This document shows, piece by piece, positions 13,731 to 21,821 of a stretch of DNA of 64,000 bases. How positions within the stretch are numbered: position 1 is the stretch's first letter; each line of letters begins with the position of its first letter. The DNA lies in the IMG/VR virus record IMGVR_UViG_3300031772_000002, positions 1 through 64,000 of that record; one strand, 5' to 3'. The position numbers and the translations under genes were made by a program. The notes under the pieces are model-generated. The model was not told the origin of the DNA and searched no databases. It saw only the letters and a program-made list of their open reading frames with translations. The DNA comes from a virus.

Positions 13731-15926
13731 ATGGTTAGTATTAAAGATGCTGTTATTCCTCAAACTGAGTTTATTAAACTTTCTACTTATAAACTTTCAA
13801 ATAATATTTCTGATTGGAATGATGAAATAATGAGTAAATTTTTTGAAGAGATTAATTACATTCCTAAAGAATATAATGTAGATATTGTAGTTAATAATAT
13901 TGATGAAGATAAGGGATATGCTAAGGGAAGCATTGTAGTGTCTTATAATAATAAGCAAATTAATTTTCCTATTATAGTTAATAATTATCAATTATCTCCA
14001 TTTGATACATTCGTACATAAAGATAAAGATATTATTAAATATTATCCTGCAAATATTATTAATATGACCAAATTGTTAATTAGTCAAAAAATTGGCAAAC
14101 CTGAAGATATTTATAAAGATCAGGGAAATTCAGAATCTATTAAAAGTGTTGGTGGTGTATATCCTAAAAGGGCCAATACTATCGGAAATATTGATGATGC
14201 TTCATATCCAACTTTTGCTAAATTATCATCATGGAATAAAAAGATATTAAAAGAAGATCTTGAAAAATTTGCTATACAATTAGAAAGTGATCCTACTATA
14301 AGTCAAAAATTTGTTGAAAATACAGGAGATTTAATGACCAATCTTATAGATCTTGAAACTCCTAAAGTTATTCCTAACAATGAAAAATCTGGTGTCTTAG
14401 ATGTAAATGATGTAATACAAGCAAAGCAAGTTGTTACTACAATAGATTCTCAAATATTTGATGTAAATAAATTACAACCAATGATAGCTCCTACTGTATG
14501 TGAATTAAGAATATATGAACAACCATCGTTAGAACAATTTATTGAGAGTGGAAATAGTGCAATTGGGAGATTCGAATCTTCTAATAATGGGATTCCTATA
14601 TCTGGAGTTGTTCTTGATTATAAAAAATCTAGTGATTTGTATGATTCAAATGAATGTGCAACCGCAGCGCCATTATCAGGTAAATATGAAGAAAAAAATA
14701 AGGATAAAATATTAATAAAAAATAGACGAGATCAGATATTTATTTCTCTTGATGGAAATTTATATTCTGAATTTTCAGATTATGATAAAAAAGGTATTGG
14801 ATTTTATGGATTAAAAACATTGACAGGAGATGGTGTTCTTGAAAAGGCAGTTGGCATGATTAGAGATAATACTAATAATGATATTATTAATATTTCTTCT
14901 GAAAATAAAAATGATGGAGCTGACAAATCTTTTAATTATATAAAAGATATGAATCAAGGAATTGGATATAATTCGTTTTGTTCATGTGATCCTGTGAGTT
15001 CGTCATTAATTATAATTTATGGAGCTAATAATTCTTATGAATGTATTCTTTTTAATGATAAATTTAAAAAAATTAAAATTAATGATAATAATGCATATGT
15101 CAGTAATGAATCAGCTATAATTCCAGCTAATATTATATCAGTTCAAAAAGTAACTGCAGTTAAAAATCCAATATACAAAATGGCATTAGGTAATGTTAAA
15201 AATATTTATTTAATTCCTGAATCTTCAATAGTTATTAATACACAACGTATGAGAAATATTCCTACAACCGGTAGAAATGGATTTATGACTCCAAGTTTAC
15301 CAATAAAAGAAATATATGAAAATTCGGGCATAAATGAAATAAAAATTAAAGCGACAAATGATGGATATAAAATTAAAGGAACAGCATTTGATCCTTTAAA
15401 AAAGGTTGCTCATTTAGTAAATCCATTATCGACTATTCATACTAAAACTGTATTAAAAATAATGGGAATGTCTGATGATATGATAAAGATTGCAATGACA
15501 TCTGCTCTTTTAAAATTATCTAATAATTCTATTATTGATAAAGATGTTTCAATTTTTGGCGTTAATGATGATTATATTAATCCTGATTCATTTAAATCAA
15601 TAGAAAAAAAAGCTAATATTGATAGTTTGTTTTCGCAGATATCTGATAAAATAAAATTAAATTTAGTAAAAGAAGCTAGTGAATTGGCAAGTCCTGATGC
15701 TGTTGATGTTGTTCTGTCTCTTAATTTTATTAATAAAGATAGTTTAATAGATTATGTTGATAATATTGATGAAATGGAAAAAGTTGTCAACGAATTATCT
15801 AAATATCTAATTGCATCTCGCATGGGATTAACAATGATTAATGAGTCTGCTACTAAAAAAGCTATTGATGGAATAACTGAAGTTATACAAAATCTTGAAC
15901 AAATTAAAATTGCTATTGGTAAATAG
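13731..15926 (+). CDS. Large hypothetical protein, probable head-associated (K-x-A/S motifs)
   Basis: 731 aa; EKFA, KKVA, EKKA, VKEAS. Confidence 0.45.
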   Translation: MVSIKDAVIPQTEFIKLSTYKLSNNISDWNDEIMSKFFEEINYIPKEYNVDIVVNNIDEDKGYAKGSIVVSYNNKQINFPIIVNNYQLSPFDTFVHKDKDIIKYYPANIINMTKLLISQKIGKPEDIYKDQGNSESIKSVGGVYPKRANTIGNIDDASYPTFAKLSSWNKKILKEDLEKFAIQLESDPTISQKFVENTGDLMTNLIDLETPKVIPNNEKSGVLDVNDVIQAKQVVTTIDSQIFDVNKLQPMIAPTVCELRIYEQPSLEQFIESGNSAIGRFESSNNGIPISGVVLDYKKSSDLYDSNECATAAPLSGKYEEKNKDKILIKNRRDQIFISLDGNLYSEFSDYDKKGIGFYGLKTLTGDGVLEKAVGMIRDNTNNDIINISSENKNDGADKSFNYIKDMNQGIGYNSFCSCDPVSSSLIIIYGANNSYECILFNDKFKKIKINDNNAYVSNESAIIPANIISVQKVTAVKNPIYKMALGNVKNIYLIPESSIVINTQRMRNIPTTGRNGFMTPSLPIKEIYENSGINEIKIKATNDGYKIKGTAFDPLKKVAHLVNPLSTIHTKTVLKIMGMSDDMIKIAMTSALLKLSNNSIIDKDVSIFGVNDDYINPDSFKSIEKKANIDSLFSQISDKIKLNLVKEASELASPDAVDVVLSLNFINKDSLIDYVDNIDEMEKVVNELSKYLIASRMGLTMINESATKKAIDGITEVIQNLEQIKIAIGK

Positions 15927-15928
15927 CT

Positions 15929-15958
15929 AAAAAAAACTCCCGTGTCGAATACGAGAGT
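15929..15958 (-). terminator. Intrinsic terminator of the RT operon
   Basis: Minus strand ACTCTCGT-7 nt-ACGGGAGT (one G-U) followed by a U-run. Confidence 0.8.
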
Positions 15959-15959
15959 A

Positions 15960-16137
15960 AGAATTATCAGACAATACCTGGCTGGGGTCGGGGCCAGACA
16001 GGGATCTTAACCTGTATGGCCCTGCACGAACTTTTATAAAAAGTTCGTGAACAGGCAGGTAATAGAAATTGTTCCACTTTAAACTAAAGTGGAACAATGA
16101 ACTAATTACCTACTTAGTTGGGCGATTCACCCAACTT
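15960..16137 (-). ncRNA. Candidate RT-associated structured RNA downstream of the operon
   Basis: Locally GC-rich; consecutive stems 16116-16136, 16055-16113 (13-bp perfect core), 16021-16055 (11-bp core), 15991-16022. Confidence 0.6.
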
Positions 16138-16329
16138 AGAATCTTTACTTTTACTAAGATTCTTTCTTCTGAATTCTTTTTTTATATTTTTAATTTCTTT
16201 TACTTCATTTGAAATGGTGTTGCTATTGTCAACAATAGCATCTGCCAAATCAAATATAGTATCGGTAATTTTTTTTACGTGTTTAATTATTTTTTTAGCA
16301 TTAGGAGTTTTGTAATCACTTTTATTCAT
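16114..16329 (-). CDS. Small basic hypothetical protein, last gene of RT operon
   Basis: 71 aa; start overlaps RNase H stop. Confidence 0.55.
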   Translation of the reverse strand: MNKSDYKTPNAKKIIKHVKKITDTIFDLADAIVDNSNTISNEVKEIKNIKKEFRRKNLSKSKDSKLGESPN

Positions 16330-16807
16330 GTGGACTTCTTTTAATGAAATCTTTTGCTATACGATCAACTTCTTGATTATTTTTATCATCCCCATGACCT
16401 TCAACCCATTTAAATTTAACAGTTTTAAATTCTAAAACTAATGAATATATTTTTTTCCACAATTTTTTATTTAATAAAGCTTTTCCATTGGATTTTCTCC
16501 AACCATTATTTGCCCATTCTATAATATAATCATTCCAATTTTCAGTTACATACTGAGAATCGCTATTAATAATGCAATCATGATCTTTTATTAATGATTG
16601 TGATGACCGTAAAAATTTTTTTAATCGTAATAAACTTCCTATTACTGCAATCAATTCCATTTGATTATTTGTTACATTGATACGGAATCCACCACCTTTC
16701 ATAATTTTTCTATAATTTAATATAATTATATATCCGTATCCTCCTTTGCATTCGCTATTTAATCTGTTTCCAGAACATGCTCCGTCTGTATATATTTCAA
16801 AAATCAT
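16322..16807 (-). CDS. rnhA: Ribonuclease HI
   Basis: YTDGACSGN, TNNQMEL, SDSQYV, WRKSNGK, WVEGH, NQEVDRIA; D-E-D-D intact. Confidence 0.95.
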   Translation of the reverse strand: MIFEIYTDGACSGNRLNSECKGGYGYIIILNYRKIMKGGGFRINVTNNQMELIAVIGSLLRLKKFLRSSQSLIKDHDCIINSDSQYVTENWNDYIIEWANNGWRKSNGKALLNKKLWKKIYSLVLEFKTVKFKWVEGHGDDKNNQEVDRIAKDFIKRSPHE

Positions 16808-17874
16808 TTGGCCCCCTTTGTCTTAAGGCCAAATTTTTCTTTTTCAAACTGTTTTAATTTTTCCATATATTTTTTACCTTGATAAGCATCAATAGACATT
16901 AAGTATGATGCCCATCCTTTTAATTTTCTTAACATTTTTTTAGTAGTTTGATCTGGATTTTTTTTTGTTGCATTATGAACTTTTGCTCTAAAAATTCTTA
17001 CATCGTATCTGGGGACTGATGTTTTTACATTAACTATTATTCCGCATGTTTTGAGTCTTCCAGATTTAGATTTAAATTTAGTTTTTTTCTTATTGGGTCG
17101 CAGTTTGTAAGCCCACAATTGTTGATATGCTAAATTTTTTACTTGTTTTTCAAGTTCGATTTTATTAATAGTTTTACTGGAAAAAGTTAAGTCATCAGCG
17201 TATCTGGTGTATACTATATTATTTTTTTCACAATGTTCAAGTAATTTTTTATCAAAACCTCTCATAATGAGGTTTGCAAGAATTGGTGATGTTGGAAATC
17301 CTTGAGCGCAAAATCCATTATAAGTACAGATATCAATTACTCGTGTCATTAATGATTGGTATCCTGTTTCGATACAATATTCAGGAATAAATACGGCTTT
17401 AATTTCTTCGCATTTAAATTCATAATCTTTTAATTTATTATGATACAATGACGGATTGCATCCATTTTCAAGCATTCTATCATAAAATTTACAAAACCTA
17501 CAAATTACTTTGTTTCCAAAAAGACAATTTTTTAAATGATCTTGAGATATTGAATCAAAAAAATTTTTTATATCTATCTTTCCTAAAGACATTGCTCCTA
17601 CGTGCAATCTTGCGTTTGTTACAATGCCCCTCTTATTAACAAATCCATGAGCTGCATCGCTTGGTTTATATTTTTTTAGAAATTTCCAATAAATACTTTT
17701 TTGTATATATTTTAATTTATTATCAGGAGCAATTATATTTCTTAACGATCCGTCACTTTTAGGTATATTCATTCTTCTTATATGTTTATCTTTATTTGCA
17801 ATGATTTCATCAATTTCATCTATTGATGAATTCATAAAGTATTGAATGTCGAAATTACTATTATCCTTGAACAT
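16804..17874 (-). CDS. Retron-type reverse transcriptase with Cys-rich insertion
   Basis: IPKSDG..R.I.AP, AAHGF, NARLH (retron NAxxH), DIKNFFDSI, AQGFPTSPILAN, YTRYADDLTFS, TCGIIVN (VTG-like region Y). Confidence 0.93.
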   Translation of the reverse strand: MFKDNSNFDIQYFMNSSIDEIDEIIANKDKHIRRMNIPKSDGSLRNIIAPDNKLKYIQKSIYWKFLKKYKPSDAAHGFVNKRGIVTNARLHVGAMSLGKIDIKNFFDSISQDHLKNCLFGNKVICRFCKFYDRMLENGCNPSLYHNKLKDYEFKCEEIKAVFIPEYCIETGYQSLMTRVIDICTYNGFCAQGFPTSPILANLIMRGFDKKLLEHCEKNNIVYTRYADDLTFSSKTINKIELEKQVKNLAYQQLWAYKLRPNKKKTKFKSKSGRLKTCGIIVNVKTSVPRYDVRIFRAKVHNATKKNPDQTTKKMLRKLKGWASYLMSIDAYQGKKYMEKLKQFEKEKFGLKTKGAK

Positions 17875-19042
17875 CTCCAGTCTCCTTTTTATCTATTTTT
17901 TTAACAGCTTGTTCGCGTGCGTCATCAATAGTGATTTCTTTATTTTCAGATGATGCTTGTTTAACTATTTCATTAGCTTTTTTTTCAACTGAATCTTCTT
18001 TGTCAACTGCATATTTTTCCATACTAATATCTTCTCCTTCATTTATATAAGTTGTTATTTGATTTAAAAATTTATCTAAATCACCAATTTTCAATATTGC
18101 TCCTCCAACTTTTTTATGCCCACCTCCTGATATAGGATATGAAAGATCTGAAAGAAATTTACCAATATTAAGATCGTATCTAAATTCAACCCATGGATTA
18201 GCTCCTATTTCACAATGAATAGATTCTTCTCCATGATTTATAATTCTAATAGAATAAGGAAGGTCTTGATTGACAAAAAATTCAGAATATCTAGGATATT
18301 CATATAATGAATTACAGTATATTATTCCTATATTAATATTTTTAACTATATTTTTTTCAATTTTTAAAGCTCTTTTTTTTAAATTTAAAACTTCTGAATT
18401 ATCTATATTCATCGAAAATAATAGATCATCAATATCAAAATCATATTTAACTATATTTTCAACTATACGACAATATGTATTATCAATATATAATTTCATA
18501 TTTTCAAGGTATGCTCTTAAAATCATTAATGGATGTAAACTATTGAAAACAGAATTTACATTAGTATAATTTGCAGAATCAATCATATCTATAATATTAA
18601 TATCATCAATAAAATTGTTGATTACATCTAATTTATTTGATTGATTTTTTATTATATAATTATATAAAACTCGTGTTGCGGATTTTTCACCTATTGAGTA
18701 TATAATATGTTTTTTATTATATATTTCTATTAATTCATTAGTTGTTTTATCGGTGAACTCTTTGTTTTGATGATGATCAATCCATATATTACATAAATCG
18801 TTGTATTGGTAATCAATGATTATAATATTTGGATTTATATTTTTTAAACAGATTTCTTTAATAAATGAATTAAATTTAATTCCTCTCATTGATGTTTTGA
18901 CAGGGCATAATTTGATTGGAAAATTTTTAGTGTCATTTTCAATAAAAGATTTAATAAATATGGCTGATGTGTATATGCCATCCATATCATCATGAAAAAA
19001 AATATAGTGTTTCTTTTTATTACAATAATTTTCTAATCCCAC
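17861..19042 (-). CDS. DHH/DHHA1-family phosphoesterase
   Basis: FHDDMDG, IIIIDY, WIDHH, MIDSA, GGGH; likely GTG start 19042 after GGAGG (ORF track start 19054). Confidence 0.88.
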   Translation of the reverse strand: MGLENYCNKKKHYIFFHDDMDGIYTSAIFIKSFIENDTKNFPIKLCPVKTSMRGIKFNSFIKEICLKNINPNIIIIDYQYNDLCNIWIDHHQNKEFTDKTTNELIEIYNKKHIIYSIGEKSATRVLYNYIIKNQSNKLDVINNFIDDINIIDMIDSANYTNVNSVFNSLHPLMILRAYLENMKLYIDNTYCRIVENIVKYDFDIDDLLFSMNIDNSEVLNLKKRALKIEKNIVKNINIGIIYCNSLYEYPRYSEFFVNQDLPYSIRIINHGEESIHCEIGANPWVEFRYDLNIGKFLSDLSYPISGGGHKKVGGAILKIGDLDKFLNQITTYINEGEDISMEKYAVDKEDSVEKKANEIVKQASSENKEITIDDAREQAVKKIDKKETGDVQG

Positions 19043-19069
19043 ATGTTCCTCCATTTGTTAGTAATAAAT

Positions 19070-19103
19070 AAAAAAAAAGAGAATCAGACGAATCTAATTC
19101 TCT
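19070..19103 (-). terminator. Intrinsic terminator-like hairpin just upstream of DHH gene
   Basis: AGAGAATTAGA-TTCG-TCTGATTCTCT plus U-run on minus strand. Confidence 0.7.
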
Positions 19104-19212
19104 CTTTAAAAATCTTCTATATTTGTTATTACATAATAATTATGAAAATAACATTTTTTTTTGTTTATAATTAAAAAAAAAAAAATAATAATAATATAAC
19201 ATAATATTATAA

Positions 19213-19497
19213 AAAGCATGCCAGTTCAATTAAAATCATTGAATACAGAACTGGAAACTCTATCTTGCATTTAAACATCTATGCAGAAGTCTTTGCTCTT
19301 TATATTACATATTTTTATATCCTACCCCTATATACCTTTCGATATATATTTTTTTTTAAATTATAATAATAAAACGGGGTAGGCCGTGATATTATTATTT
19401 TTACCTTTAACCTTGTTATATTTATAATGTTGGGTTAAAATCAACATTATAAACCTGTTAGTGAACAGGAACATTTAACCAGTGATATACATGCTTT
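19213..19497 (-). ncRNA. Candidate structured RNA upstream of RT operon
   Basis: Closing IR AAAGCATG/CATGCTTT and six internal stems; promoter motif upstream; long U-run downstream; no ORF in track. Confidence 0.55.
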
Positions 19498-19520
19498 AAG
19501 TAGGTTAAACGTACTCATTA

Positions 19521-19538
19521 TTGTTATACCATATTTTT
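19521..19538 (-). promoter_or_regulatory. Putative phage promoter AAAAATATGGTATAACAA driving the upstream RNA
   Basis: Matches recurrent motif; TGnTATAA extended -10-like. Confidence 0.55.
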
Positions 19539-19621
19539 GTAAAAAATAACATAATAGTTAACTACTTAAGAACCAGGGATCTTCGTACTTTAGGTTAAGG
19601 AATGGTCAATCAATTAATATT

Positions 19622-20659
19622 TTAGTAACGACGTTCAGCCCCAGTTCCTGTTGGAATTTGAGGATTGTTAGTTTGATTTAGTTCTGCTGTTTTTTTATGA
19701 CCAGTTAAAGCTTGGACACCTTTAACTCCGCCATATGCAGCTGCGCCTCCTCCAGCAAGTGTTAATCCAACTGCAGGGGTTGCTTTTTTAACTGCTGAAA
19801 GTAATGATAGTTTTTTTTCTGGAGATCCCCAACTATAAGGATTTTTAAATGATGCTGGTTGTTTTTTTAATGCAGAACTAATACTTCCTGGACCTTTTCC
19901 ATAAGCTGCTTTAAAAGATTCTTTGGTTCCTTTATATCCTGCTTTGGCGACGCCTTTAACAGCACCTTTAACTGCTTGATATATTTCTTTCGCTCCAGCT
20001 TCTTTTATTCCAGCTTCTTTTTTATGACCAGTTAATGCTTTAACTCCTTTAACTCCTCCATATGCTGCACCAGTTGCTGCAGCGCCTTGGATTGCTATTG
20101 CAGGAAGTGATTTAACAACAGCTTTTATTACTGGTTTAAATTGTTTTTTTTCTGGAGTTCCCCAACTATAAGAGTTTTTAAGCGATTCTGGTTTTTTTAA
20201 TGCAGAACTAATACTTCCTGGGCCTTTTCCATACATTGCTTTAAAAGATTCTTTAGTTCCTTTTATAGCCTGTCCTGGAGCGCCTTTAATTGCTTTATAT
20301 CCAGTAGTTAATGCTTTTTTTAGACTTGGCATCATTTCCTTCATCCACTTAGGTACTCCAGCGCCAATCTTTTCAAGTTCATCATTAAACCCTTCATAAT
20401 AGCATTCCATTGCTTCTTTTGGTATTTCAGAAGCAGCTCTAACTCCACGATTAAAAAATTCATTTGCAATTTGAGAATTTTCCTCTTGATTTGCAATATC
20501 AAATTGTGTAGCCATTTCATTACTTGCCTTTCTAGCACCTGATTGGTAGCCAAGTTTATGTCCTATTATAGCAGCAGCTGGAGTAGCAATAGCAGCTCCA
20601 GCTCCTACTGTTAACATCTTATTCAAAAAAGATCCAGCAATTTTTGTTTGAGTATTCAT
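19622..20659 (-). CDS. Ala/Gly/Lys-rich protein with about 110-aa internal duplication, probable virion internal protein
   Basis: KGTKESFKAxYGKGPGSISSALKK and YGGVKGVxALTGHKK each twice; FNDELEKIG motif. Confidence 0.6.
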   Translation of the reverse strand: MNTQTKIAGSFLNKMLTVGAGAAIATPAAAIIGHKLGYQSGARKASNEMATQFDIANQEENSQIANEFFNRGVRAASEIPKEAMECYYEGFNDELEKIGAGVPKWMKEMMPSLKKALTTGYKAIKGAPGQAIKGTKESFKAMYGKGPGSISSALKKPESLKNSYSWGTPEKKQFKPVIKAVVKSLPAIAIQGAAATGAAYGGVKGVKALTGHKKEAGIKEAGAKEIYQAVKGAVKGVAKAGYKGTKESFKAAYGKGPGSISSALKKQPASFKNPYSWGSPEKKLSLLSAVKKATPAVGLTLAGGGAAAYGGVKGVQALTGHKKTAELNQTNNPQIPTGTGAERRY

Positions 20660-20753
20660 TGTTTACCTTTCTGATAATTTATATAATTTCTGTTATAATT
20701 AAATATAACATATTTTTAAATATTATACAATTAAATTTAAAAATAATTACATA

Positions 20754-21821
20754 ATGTATATTTTGTTATATAATATTAGTATGGACATGTTTATGAATAA
20801 AGTACCATTTAAAAATTTTATTATTACTTTATTGTTTTGTGGTAAGACTATCAATGATATAATTGATAAACTTAAATCATTTAATTACTATATAACAGAA
20901 GATGAAATATTATTAATTTCAAATGAATTAAAATCTACACTTCCTAAAAGTGTTATTGATATTTTAAATAACAGATTATTACTAAATTTAGAAAATAATA
21001 TTCATGTTGAATGGTTGAAAAAATTAAATATATTTGAGTTATATCATTATATAACTAGTAATAATAAAAATAATTCAGATGTTCCTAATTATTTTAAATG
21101 GTGTGAAGATTGTGTTTGGATTCATTCTTATTATGATGTTATGTCAATTGTTAATATATTCATTTTCAATAACGAACCGCTTGAAAATATATCTGATATC
21201 ATAATGTTAAAGTATAAAAAAAAGATAGGTATTGATGCGTTAAATTTGTATAAAAAAATATTTTGGGATACTGAAAATTTAACTGCAAAGGATGCATTGA
21301 GATATTGTATTCCTTTTCATGATAACACTTTAATTATACGTAAATTTAATAATAATACTGAAATTGAGTGTCCATCTAATGATGGTAGTGATGTTACGGT
21401 TAATTTTCATAATATTAATTATATAAAATGGAAACTAGGAATTCCTATTACAACTCCTAATACTGATGATTTTCTTAAACAGGTTCAAACTGATAGTATA
21501 TACAAATTTTATGAGGTAATGAATTCTACTCAAAGTATTGAAGAGATTAAAGAAGAGGGTCAGAACGATAAGTTTGGAGTATTCGATAGTACAAAAACTA
21601 CAAAACGTAATGTAGAAGAAATGCGTGTTAAGTTGGCTAAACAATGGTTAGATATTTTTATTAAAGTTAAAGAACATACTGGGGCGTCTGATCAAGATTC
21701 TACAACTAAATTTTTTAATCAAATGAAACAGGTACAATTAGAATTTGATAATTGTGAAGAACATATTACTAAAATAGATGATATTCCAAATTTATTTGAA
21801 AATATTAAAGGTGATATTTAA
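20754..21821 (+). CDS. Hypothetical protein, possible terminase small subunit
   Basis: Immediately upstream of terL; positional evidence only. Confidence 0.35.
   Translation: MYILLYNISMDMFMNKVPFKNFIITLLFCGKTINDIIDKLKSFNYYITEDEILLISNELKSTLPKSVIDILNNRLLLNLENNIHVEWLKKLNIFELYHYITSNNKNNSDVPNYFKWCEDCVWIHSYYDVMSIVNIFIFNNEPLENISDIIMLKYKKKIGIDALNLYKKIFWDTENLTAKDALRYCIPFHDNTLIIRKFNNNTEIECPSNDGSDVTVNFHNINYIKWKLGIPITTPNTDDFLKQVQTDSIYKFYEVMNSTQSIEEIKEEGQNDKFGVFDSTKTTKRNVEEMRVKLAKQWLDIFIKVKEHTGASDQDSTTKFFNQMKQVQLEFDNCEEHITKIDDIPNLFENIKGDI

What the first reader, a model, noticed from the sequence alone, without database searches (positions are those of the whole stretch)
19173..19538. Stand-alone RNA of about 300 nt upstream of the RT operon, closed by an a1/a2-like inverted repeat
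Seen: promoter motif 19521-19538; closing IR AAAGCATG 19213-19220 / CATGCTTT 19490-19497; stems CCTGTT/AACAGG 19454-19469, TTTATAATGTTG/CAACATTATAAA 19421-19453, CCTACCCC/GGGGTAGG 19321-19383 with an inner GAAA-tetraloop hairpin on the minus strand, TGCAT/ATGCA 19266-19285, CCAGTTC/GAACTGG 19221-19254; U-run 19173-19185. The loop GGTTAAA (19433-19439) complements TTTAACC at both 19406 and 19474, a possible pseudoknot. Inference: second candidate msr-msd-like RNA, or an independent novel phage ncRNA. I cannot assign a branching G.
Basis: partly seen in the sequence, partly recalled or inferred. Interest (0 to 1): 0.75.

Follow-up and report, generated by a model that had tools for sequence, protein, structure and literature searches.

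The report
Optional folded RNA cassette in phage
A roughly 300-nt folded non-coding RNA with its own promoter lies in a swap-in/swap-out cassette just upstream of a phage reverse-transcriptase operon; compensatory mutations keep its hairpins, but sister phages with the same operon lack it, so it is probably not the reverse transcriptase's own template RNA.

Summary
The minus-strand fold beats shuffles (z -4.5). Four alleles were recovered from other metagenomes. They share a 5' hairpin, the closing helix AAAGCAUG/CAUGCUUU and an ~85-nt 3' domain. The central core is hypervariable. Hairpins are kept by compensatory changes: 4 of 80 predicted pairs changed on both sides and none broke.

The promoter is real in kind. 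It is one of about 8 extended -10 promoters (TGTTAT-N17-TGGTATAAC) in this 164-kb phage, and the others sit 29-149 nt from a gene.

The retron reading is not supported. The whole ~465-nt block (about 19159-19625) is missing, at one identical junction, from at least seven contigs that carry an intact DHH-RT-RNase H operon. Six of these have a neighbouring gene about 100% identical to the window's. The RT family's conserved RNA lies downstream of RNase H instead (motif CCCCGACCCCAG, 44 of 53 loci; window ~15930-16113). There is no Rfam match.

Best reading: an accessory, self-promoted structured ncRNA or leader cassette in a recombination hot spot. Its function is unknown, and expression is untested because no RNA runs were found. 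Moderate interest.

The parts
19159..19625 (-). Indel block (cassette) of about 465 nt. It is present in the window and in alleles L089/L090, L093-95 and L096, and L088 holds its 3' end. It is absent with the same junction in L020/L102, L099, L100, L101, L092 and two ENA contigs.
   Evidence: the ends are uncertain by about 5 nt because of A-runs
19523..19551 (-). Promoter P: TGTTAT (19551-19546), a 17-nt spacer, and an extended -10 TGGTATAAC (19531-19523). The inferred start is about 19516.
   Evidence: 8 copies in the genome, all on the minus strand; the other copies lie 29-149 nt before an ORF; conserved in alleles A, B and C and relocated in D
19474..19509 (-). 5' hairpin X': UUUAACC (19509-19503) pairs with GGUUAAA (19480-19474). 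Its loop carries the 5' arm of the closing helix.
   Evidence: allele C has CCAACC/GGUUGG at the same place, which is two compensatory pairs
19490..19497 (-). 5' arm of closing helix Y (AAAGCAUG)
   Evidence: invariant in all four alleles, so no covariation is possible
19213..19220 (-). 3' arm of closing helix Y (CAUGCUUU)
   Evidence: invariant in all four alleles
19300..19473 (-). Hypervariable core. It holds hairpin H1 (19469-19454), H2 (19453-19421), and H3 (19383-19321, with an inner GAAA-loop hairpin at 19348-19329; an alternative local hairpin lies at 19387-19374).
   Evidence: compensatory changes against L089; unrelated sequence in allele C; replaced by an IS200/605-like piece in allele D; identity is 53-91% while the flanks are 99-100%
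19221..19291 (-). Conserved 3' domain: GACUUCUGCAU..., hairpin H4 (19285-19266), linker AAGAUAGAGUUU, and hairpin H5 (19254-19221)
   Evidence: nearly invariant across alleles whose flanking proteins are 72-83% identical; the outermost H5 pair changes C-G to U-A in allele C
19159..19212 (-). A/T-only tract of variable length that includes U13 (19185-19173). It is not preceded by a stable hairpin.
19125..19153 (-). Second promoter-like site P2 (TGTTAT 19153-19148, TGTAATAAC 19133-19125). It lies outside the indel and is kept in the empty alleles.
19066..19107 (-). Strong intrinsic-terminator-like hairpin (15 pairs, UUCG loop, U9) about 25 nt before the DHH start. It is the likely 3' end of transcripts from P.
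   Evidence: conserved in all alleles

Best explanation
The block at about 19159-19625 is an accessory, self-promoted non-coding RNA cassette on the minus strand. It lies in a recombination hot spot between the 345-aa gene and the DHH-RT-RNase H operon.

An extended -10 early-type promoter (start about 19516) drives an RNA with two kinds of parts.
- A conserved frame: the 5' hairpin, the long-range helix AAAGCAUG/CAUGCUUU, and an ~85-nt two-hairpin 3' domain.
- A fast-changing central set of hairpins, whose pairing is kept by compensatory mutations.

The transcript most likely runs on through the A/T tract and promoter P2 to the strong terminator at 19107-19066, giving about 450 nt. It is not the cognate template RNA of the retron-type RT. 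That RNA lies downstream of RNase H.

Shown:
- the structure is real and under selection;
- the cassette is optional;
- the promoter belongs to the phage's gene-promoter family.

Inferred: how it works.
- My leading guess (about 35%) is a cis-acting leader. It would add a second promoter and a folded 5' domain in front of the terminator-guarded RT operon, and so tune read-through or dosage.
- Next (about 25%) is a stand-alone trans-acting small RNA.
For: - Fold stability: z -4.54.
- Structure under selection: 4 compensatory and 4 one-sided compatible changes with 0 broken pairs among 80, against allele L089; permutation P about 0.001. Further compensatory pairs in allele C lie in H5 and the 5' hairpin.
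- No coding or known-RNA signal: no ORF longer than 43 aa, no tRNA, no Rfam hit at gathering score or at E<=10.
- Promoter: one of 8 copies. All the others lie 29-149 nt from an ORF with a Shine-Dalgarno site, and this one lies 461 nt from the next ORF.
- Presence or absence at one identical junction: empty in L020/L102, L099, L100, L101, L092 and two ENA contigs; filled in the window, L089/L090, L093-95, L096 and L088.
- Mosaic conservation: flanks are 99-100% identical while the core is 53-91%.
- In allele D the promoter sits directly in front of the conserved 3' domain. The same layout is seen in an independent run.
- The only strong terminator lies after P2, just before DHH.
- The RT family's own RNA is elsewhere: CCCCGACCCCAG lies 230-460 nt after RNase H in 44 of 53 loci, including the empty allele L020.
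Against: - No expression data exist. All runs that hold the sequence are DNA contigs.
- The strand is not settled by energy: z is equal on both strands. One wobble pair favours each strand.
- The closing helix and H4 never vary, so they have no covariation support.
- Perfect palindromes could also serve at the DNA level.
- Only four alleles are known, all from one phage clade.
- The empty alleles keep P2, the terminator and the operon. Any cis-regulatory role is therefore dispensable.
- An unrelated RNA in the same slot in L002 has its own terminator before the DHH promoter. That fits a stand-alone gene better than a leader.
- A 37-aa hydrophobic ORF starts in the 3' arm and stays in frame in 3 of 4 alleles.
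Confidence: 0.6

Rival explanations
1. It is an optional second msr-msd-like template. The neighbouring retron-type RT would prime on this RNA and copy part of it into single-stranded DNA, and the variable core would be the payload.
For: - It lies directly upstream of a retron-type RT operon (PADLOC RT_XIII 3.5e-63).
- It is a multi-hairpin RNA closed by an 8-bp terminal inverted repeat that ends in G.
- Its hairpins change with compensation, as msd stems do.
- Read on the plus strand, the order would be closing arm, then two conserved hairpins, then the variable part, then closing arm, which is retron-like.
- Two distant relatives also hold a small promoter-driven unit in this slot.
Against: - It is absent from at least 7 contigs with an intact operon and from all distant family members.
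- The family-wide conserved RNA is downstream of RNase H.
- It has no similarity to that RNA and lacks the CCCGACC word.
- The G at the end of the arm is paired with C rather than opposed to a G.
- The only recurring promoter points the other way from the retron-like plus-strand order.
- There is no Rfam msr match on either strand.
- The unit in that slot in L044 is a small ORF, not an RNA.
Confidence: 0.1
2. It is the mRNA of a small hydrophobic peptide (37 aa, 19219-19109) with a long structured 5' UTR. The long-range helix would hide the start codon, as in type I toxin mRNAs.
For: - The ORF starts in the GCAUGC 3' arm and ends at the foot of the strong terminator.
- It is in frame in alleles A, B and D despite indels: 66, 66 and 75 nt to P2.
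- The peptide is a hydrophobic helix followed by N-K-K-K.
- L044 holds, in the same slot, a Shine-Dalgarno site plus a 32-aa hydrophobic ORF plus a terminator.
Against: - There is no Shine-Dalgarno site.
- Allele C is out of frame and gives 16 aa.
- The ORF runs through a T13 homopolymer and across promoter P2.
- Changes in its 3' half are almost all non-synonymous.
- The A/T-only composition alone produces Ile/Phe/Leu/Tyr runs.
- There is no Pfam match.
- Three in-frame alleles are expected by chance about 1 time in 9.
Confidence: 0.1
3. The palindromes work at the DNA level, as operator sites or as a recombination or replication structure, and the RNA fold is incidental.
For: - Most stems are perfect DNA palindromes, and z-scores are the same on both strands.
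- The block sits where alleles are exchanged.
- An IS200/605-type piece has landed in it in allele D.
Against: - H2 keeps pairing through three double changes plus a bulge, which is unusual for protein-binding palindromes.
- There is a GNRA loop on the promoter strand.
- A gene-type promoter reads into it.
- There is no GC-skew turning point here.
- The block is dispensable, so it is not an essential origin.
Confidence: 0.1
4. It is decaying filler: the remnant of a lost gene cassette with no present function.
For: It is optional, A/T-rich (23% G+C), and its tract lengths vary.
Against: - It shows compensatory substitutions and no broken pairs.
- The 3' domain is more conserved than the neighbouring genes across lineages.
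Confidence: 0.07

Closest known systems
Retron msr-msd ncRNA (e.g. Ec86, Mx162; Mestre et al. 2020, PMC7736814)
   Same: It lies next to a retron-type RT. It is a several-hairpin RNA closed by terminal inverted repeats. Its variable hairpins are kept by compensatory changes.
   Different: It is dispensable in sister genomes and absent from the rest of the RT family. It lacks the unpaired priming-G geometry. In the promoter's orientation the order of conserved and variable parts is reversed. The family has another conserved RNA downstream of RNase H. There is no Rfam match.
Phage morons and promoter-bearing mobile regulatory cassettes of T4-type phages (PeSL; cited from my own knowledge, not checked here)
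   Same: It is an early-promoter-bearing block. It is present or absent between near-identical genomes at a fixed junction, in a mosaic region, with similar promoter copies nearby.
   Different: The cargo is a structured non-coding RNA, not an ORF. Recombination between the two promoter copies would not give the observed junction.
Promoter-proximal cis-acting antiterminator RNAs (HK022 put, EAR; cited from my own knowledge)
   Same: A conserved two-hairpin RNA domain lies downstream of a promoter and upstream of a strong intrinsic terminator that guards an operon.
   Different: No sequence or structure similarity was shown, and no functional evidence exists. The operon exists without it.
IS200/IS605 TnpB omega-RNA / right end (Rfam HgcC, sot0042)
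   Same: This applies only to the core of allele D (L096:1555-1690). It scores 27.9 bits against HgcC. It also has 89-91% identity over ~35 nt to the sequence directly after the tnpB-like genes in two of three unrelated phages with this match.
   Different: The score is below the Rfam gathering score (50). There is no tnpB gene. The window's own allele has no such piece.

Membership tests
Retron msr-msd | Terminal inverted repeats (a1/a2) that close the transcript | tested here: met
   An 8-bp AAAGCAUG/CAUGCUUU helix is present in all four alleles. It is invariant, so it has no covariation.
Retron msr-msd | An unpaired priming G at the inner end of the 5' arm, opposed by a G | tested here: not met
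   The terminal G pairs with C. The next base is U or A. The base before the 3' arm is G in alleles A, B and D but A in C.
Retron msr-msd | Co-occurs and co-evolves with its RT | tested here: not met
   It is absent from at least 7 contigs with an intact operon. It is also absent from about 70 more distant loci. A different RNA tracks the RT in 44 of 53 loci.
Retron msr-msd | A conserved msr part 5' of a variable msd part | tested here: not met
   On the promoter strand the conserved domain is 3' of the variable core. The feature is met only if the RNA is read from the plus strand, which has no recurring promoter.
Retron msr-msd | Gives RT-dependent branched RNA-DNA (msDNA) | not testable with these tools
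   This needs expression and a nucleic-acid gel or sequencing.
Any Rfam 15 family | A covariance-model score at or above the gathering score | tested here: not met
   There are 0 hits in the window at gathering score and none in 19055-19621 at E<=10.
Stand-alone bacterial/phage sRNA gene | Its own promoter and its own intrinsic terminator | tested here: inconclusive
   The promoter is met. No canonical terminator lies at the U-run. The first strong one is at 19107-19066, after P2.
Type I toxin mRNA | A conserved small hydrophobic ORF with a ribosome-binding site | tested here: not met
   There is no Shine-Dalgarno site. Allele C is out of frame. The changes are non-synonymous.

The most novel reading that the evidence does not exclude
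The cassette is an exchangeable second template for the phage's retron-type RT. The conserved frame would dock the RT, and the hypervariable core would be copied into DNA. Related phages would then swap 'payload' DNAs by recombination at this locus.
Probability: 0.08. Interest if true: 0.85.

Novelty: new member of a known kind. Interest (0 to 1): 0.42.

Why it matters
This finding separates the two structured RNAs that flank a phage-borne DHH-RT-RNase H module. The family-wide RNA downstream of RNase H is the one to test as the RT's partner. The upstream one is an optional add-on.

The add-on is itself a clean example of a phage non-coding RNA with a fixed frame and a rapidly exchanged core. 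It is polymorphic among co-occurring phages in lake sediments and is not in Rfam. If it tunes or feeds the RT operon, it would be a handle on how phages control a retron-like enzyme.

Tried and rejected
- Rfam gave nothing for the region, either at gathering score over the whole window or at E<=10 over 15800-19700. ARAGORN found no tRNA or tmRNA.
- Blastn and nhmmer of the block against all fetched loci and the phage's own genome matched only the promoter motif.
- Three exact-pattern scans of viral contigs gave 0 hits. Phage GenBank blastn matched only an unrelated Lak-phage stretch at 20663-20838.
- Sequencing runs: no RNA holder is listed. All nine holders are sediment DNA contigs, so nothing can be said on expression.
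- Strand by thermodynamics is inconclusive. The z-score is equal on both strands in all four alleles.
- Origin of replication: there is no cumulative GC-skew extremum near 19 kb. The skew simply follows gene direction.
- Antisense targets: the longest complementary word elsewhere in the genome is 13 nt, at 162355, which is about chance level.
- Shared motif with the downstream RT RNA: only a 9-mer, CCUGUUCAC. This was read from the sequences, and no alignment was run to test it. It lies in the variable core, so it was judged insufficient.
- Small ORF 19219-19109: there is no Pfam family. One typed coordinate for L096 was wrong (error).
- The atlas look-up of the 345-aa neighbour gave scores of 0.78 or less and was uninformative. 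A literature search on 'HgcC' returned only unrelated papers.
- MAFFT plus RNAalifold on 22 downstream RNAs aligned only the central hairpin. The closing helix there was read by eye.
- The idea that recombination between P and P2 made the deletion was rejected, because the empty alleles also lack the ~70 nt upstream of P.

Full report
**Setting**

The window is the first 64 kb of a 164-kb phage genome with 28% G+C and direct terminal repeats. The finding lies in a 567-nt gap (19055-19621) inside a minus-strand gene group, in this order:
- a 345-aa protein of unknown family (20659..19622);
- the gap;
- a DHH-like phosphoesterase (19054..17861);
- a retron-type RT (17874..16804; Pfam RVT_1 3e-20; PADLOC RT_XIII 3.5e-63, closely followed by III-A and II-A);
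- RNase H (16807..16322);
- a 71-aa ORF.

**Observation**

The minus strand folds at -81.3 kcal/mol against -60.8 +/- 4.5 for shuffles (z -4.54). The plus strand gives z -3.25. In a second test on four alleles the z-scores were the same on both strands, so energy alone does not choose the strand. There is no ORF above 43 aa, no tRNA and no Rfam match, even at E<=10.

**The promoter**

The motif is TGTTAT, 17 nt, then TGGTATAAC (19551-19523). It is an extended -10 promoter. Eight copies with up to 6 mismatches occur in the genome, all on the minus strand. The other copies lie 29-149 nt before an ORF, in most cases an ORF with a Shine-Dalgarno site. This copy is 461 nt from the next ORF. A second, similar site (P2; TGTTAT 19153-19148, TGTAATAAC 19133-19125) lies just downstream of the block. 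P2 is followed by a strong terminator-like hairpin (19107-19066; 15 pairs, UUCG loop, U9) about 25 nt before the DHH start. The U13 run (19185-19173) has no stable hairpin before it. I therefore think transcripts from P end at the strong terminator; this is inference.

**Relatives and the indel**

DHH homologues led to about 80 loci in which DHH-RT-RNase H is a conserved phage module. Closer relatives, found through the DHH protein and the 345-aa neighbour, show that the block at about 19159-19625 is an indel.
- It is missing, with the same junction, in L020/L102, L099, L100, L101, two ENA contigs listed without DNA, and L092. All but L092 have a 345-aa protein about 100% identical to the window's; L092's is 77% identical.
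- It is present in L089/L091 and L090 (allele B), L093-95 (allele C) and L096 (allele D). Its 3' end is present in L088.
- Contigs of another run show the D-type layout and, at low depth, the A-type core in one sample.

**Anatomy from four alleles**

The conserved parts are:
- the transcribed 5' end, including AACCUACUUAAAGCAUG;
- an ~85-nt 3' domain, made of GACUUCUGCAU, hairpin H4, AAGAUAGAGUUU, hairpin H5 and CAUGCUUUUUA;
- everything from the end of the A/T tract through P2 and the terminator to the DHH start.

The centre is hypervariable.
- Allele B is about 90% identical to the window.
- Allele C is unrelated there.
- In allele D the core is replaced by a G+C-rich piece, the promoter is deleted at its usual place, and a copy of it sits directly in front of the 3' domain.
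- In L090 and L096 the flanking genes are 99-100% identical to the window, while the core is 53-91% identical.

**Evidence for selected structure**

Against allele B, RNAalifold predicts 80 pairs. Four changed on both sides and stayed paired, four changed on one side compatibly, and none broke. By eye, H2 carries three double changes plus a bulge, and H1 carries one. The change around CCUACC fits either the outer H3 stem or a local hairpin at 19387-19374. A permutation of the 30 substitutions gives P about 0.001 for three or more compensatory doubles, and never more than three in 20,000 trials. In allele C the outer pair of H5 changes C-G to U-A. Also in allele C, the 5' hairpin UUUAACC/GGUUAAA becomes CCAACC/GGUUGG. 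The closing helix and H4 never vary, so they are neither supported nor contradicted.

**Why it is not the RT's cognate RNA**

The non-coding stretch downstream of RNase H is conserved across the family. It has two covarying hairpins, an invariant CCCCGACCCCAG and a terminator whose loop often repeats CCCGACC. The motif lies 230-460 nt after the RNase H stop in 44 of 53 loci. That count includes the empty allele L020, and most of the loci without the motif simply end too soon. The window's copy is at about 16113-15930, with the motif at 15982-15993. The upstream block shares nothing with it beyond a 9-mer that I read by eye in its variable core. The block is restricted to one clade and is optional even there.

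**What else sits in this slot**

- In L002/L013 (DHH 36% identical) the same position holds an unrelated promoter-driven 311-nt RNA (z -4.46). It has a 16-bp closing helix and its own terminator, followed by a second promoter.
- In L044 the slot holds a Shine-Dalgarno site, a 32-aa hydrophobic ORF and a terminator.
- Most other loci have a small 80-120-aa ORF and only a short gap.

The boundary in front of the DHH promoter therefore looks like a general insertion slot for small transcription units. That fits a moron-like cassette better than a dedicated RT cofactor.

**Allele D's foreign piece**

L096:1586-1705 scores 27.9 bits against Rfam HgcC (gathering score 50) and weakly against sot0042. 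About 35 nt of it are 89-91% identical to a stretch in three unrelated phages. In Saccharomonospora phage PIS 136 and a Morganella phage that stretch lies directly after an IS605 OrfB/TnpB-like gene. The third match, in a Pseudanabaena phage, lies under a hypothetical protein and was not examined further. From my own knowledge, these Rfam families correspond to the 3'-end (omega/right-end) RNA of IS200/IS605 elements. So allele D carries a miniature IS200/605-derived insertion. This concerns the locus's plasticity, not the window's allele.

**Mechanism**

Shown:
- an optional cassette;
- a gene-type promoter;
- a selected fold with a fixed frame and a variable core.

Inferred: minus-strand transcription from about 19516 to the terminator at 19066. 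I rank the readings as follows, on my own estimates.
- A cis-acting leader that adds a promoter and a folded domain in front of the terminator-guarded operon: about 35%.
- A trans-acting small RNA: about 25%.
- An optional RT template, a small-peptide mRNA, or a DNA-level element: about 10% each.
- Filler: about 7%.

**Small-ORF rival**

The ORF is 19219-19109 and encodes 37 aa. It is in frame in alleles A, B and D but not in C. It has no Shine-Dalgarno site and crosses the T13 run and P2.

**Earlier notes of this scan**

Earlier notes on the same window described the RT operon 'bracketed by two structured RNAs' and the G+C-rich RNA at 15960-16137. I tested the second and found it family-wide. 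The present finding has not been seen by the scan on other DNA.

**Verdict**

This is a real, new structured phage RNA (or leader) family. It is accessory and polymorphic, and it is not supported as a retron msr-msd. Its function is unknown.

Noticed in passing
window 15930-16113 (-): A structured RNA downstream of RNase H is conserved across the RT family. It has a closing helix, two covarying hairpins, an invariant CCCCGACCCCAG (15982-15993) and a terminator whose loop often repeats CCCGACC. The motif is found 230-460 nt after RNase H in 44 of 53 loci.
   Followed up: partly
window 19066-19153 (-): A promoter-like site P2 is followed within about 11 nt of its inferred start by a strong terminator hairpin (15 bp, UUCG loop, U9), right before the DHH ribosome-binding site. 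It is conserved in filled and empty alleles. The RT operon therefore looks terminator-guarded.
   Followed up: partly
L096:1555-1690: A G+C-rich piece replaces the RNA core in allele D. It resembles the right-end/omega-RNA of IS200/IS605 (Rfam HgcC 27.9 bits). About 35 nt of it match sequence directly after tnpB-like genes in two of three unrelated phages with this match. No tnpB gene is nearby.
   Followed up: partly
L002:3590-3900; L044:3268-3430: The same slot upstream of DHH holds other small units in distant relatives. L002 has an unrelated 311-nt promoter-driven RNA (z -4.46) with its own terminator. L044 has a 32-aa hydrophobic ORF with a Shine-Dalgarno site and a terminator.
   Followed up: partly
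window 19800-20300 (-): The 345-aa neighbour has a hypervariable middle part. It is 64-88% identical at the DNA level in relatives whose flanks are 99-100% identical. It lies adjacent to the variable RNA core.
   Followed up: no
window 2247, 51315, 53407, 60966; genome 65028, 71177, 74456 (all -): These are further copies of the TGTTAT-N17-TGnTATAAC promoter. They share transcribed-start similarity (...AUAAUG..GUUUAA) and each lies 29-149 nt before an ORF.
   Followed up: partly
L093:4130-4165: In allele C a hairpin CCCCGACC/GGUCGGGG sits just upstream of promoter P. It shares the CCCCGACC word with the RT-family RNA.
   Followed up: no
window 20663-20838: This is the only DNA match to GenBank phages: 71% identity to Prevotella Lak megaphages, in the divergent intergenic region between the 345-aa and 355-aa genes.
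   Followed up: no
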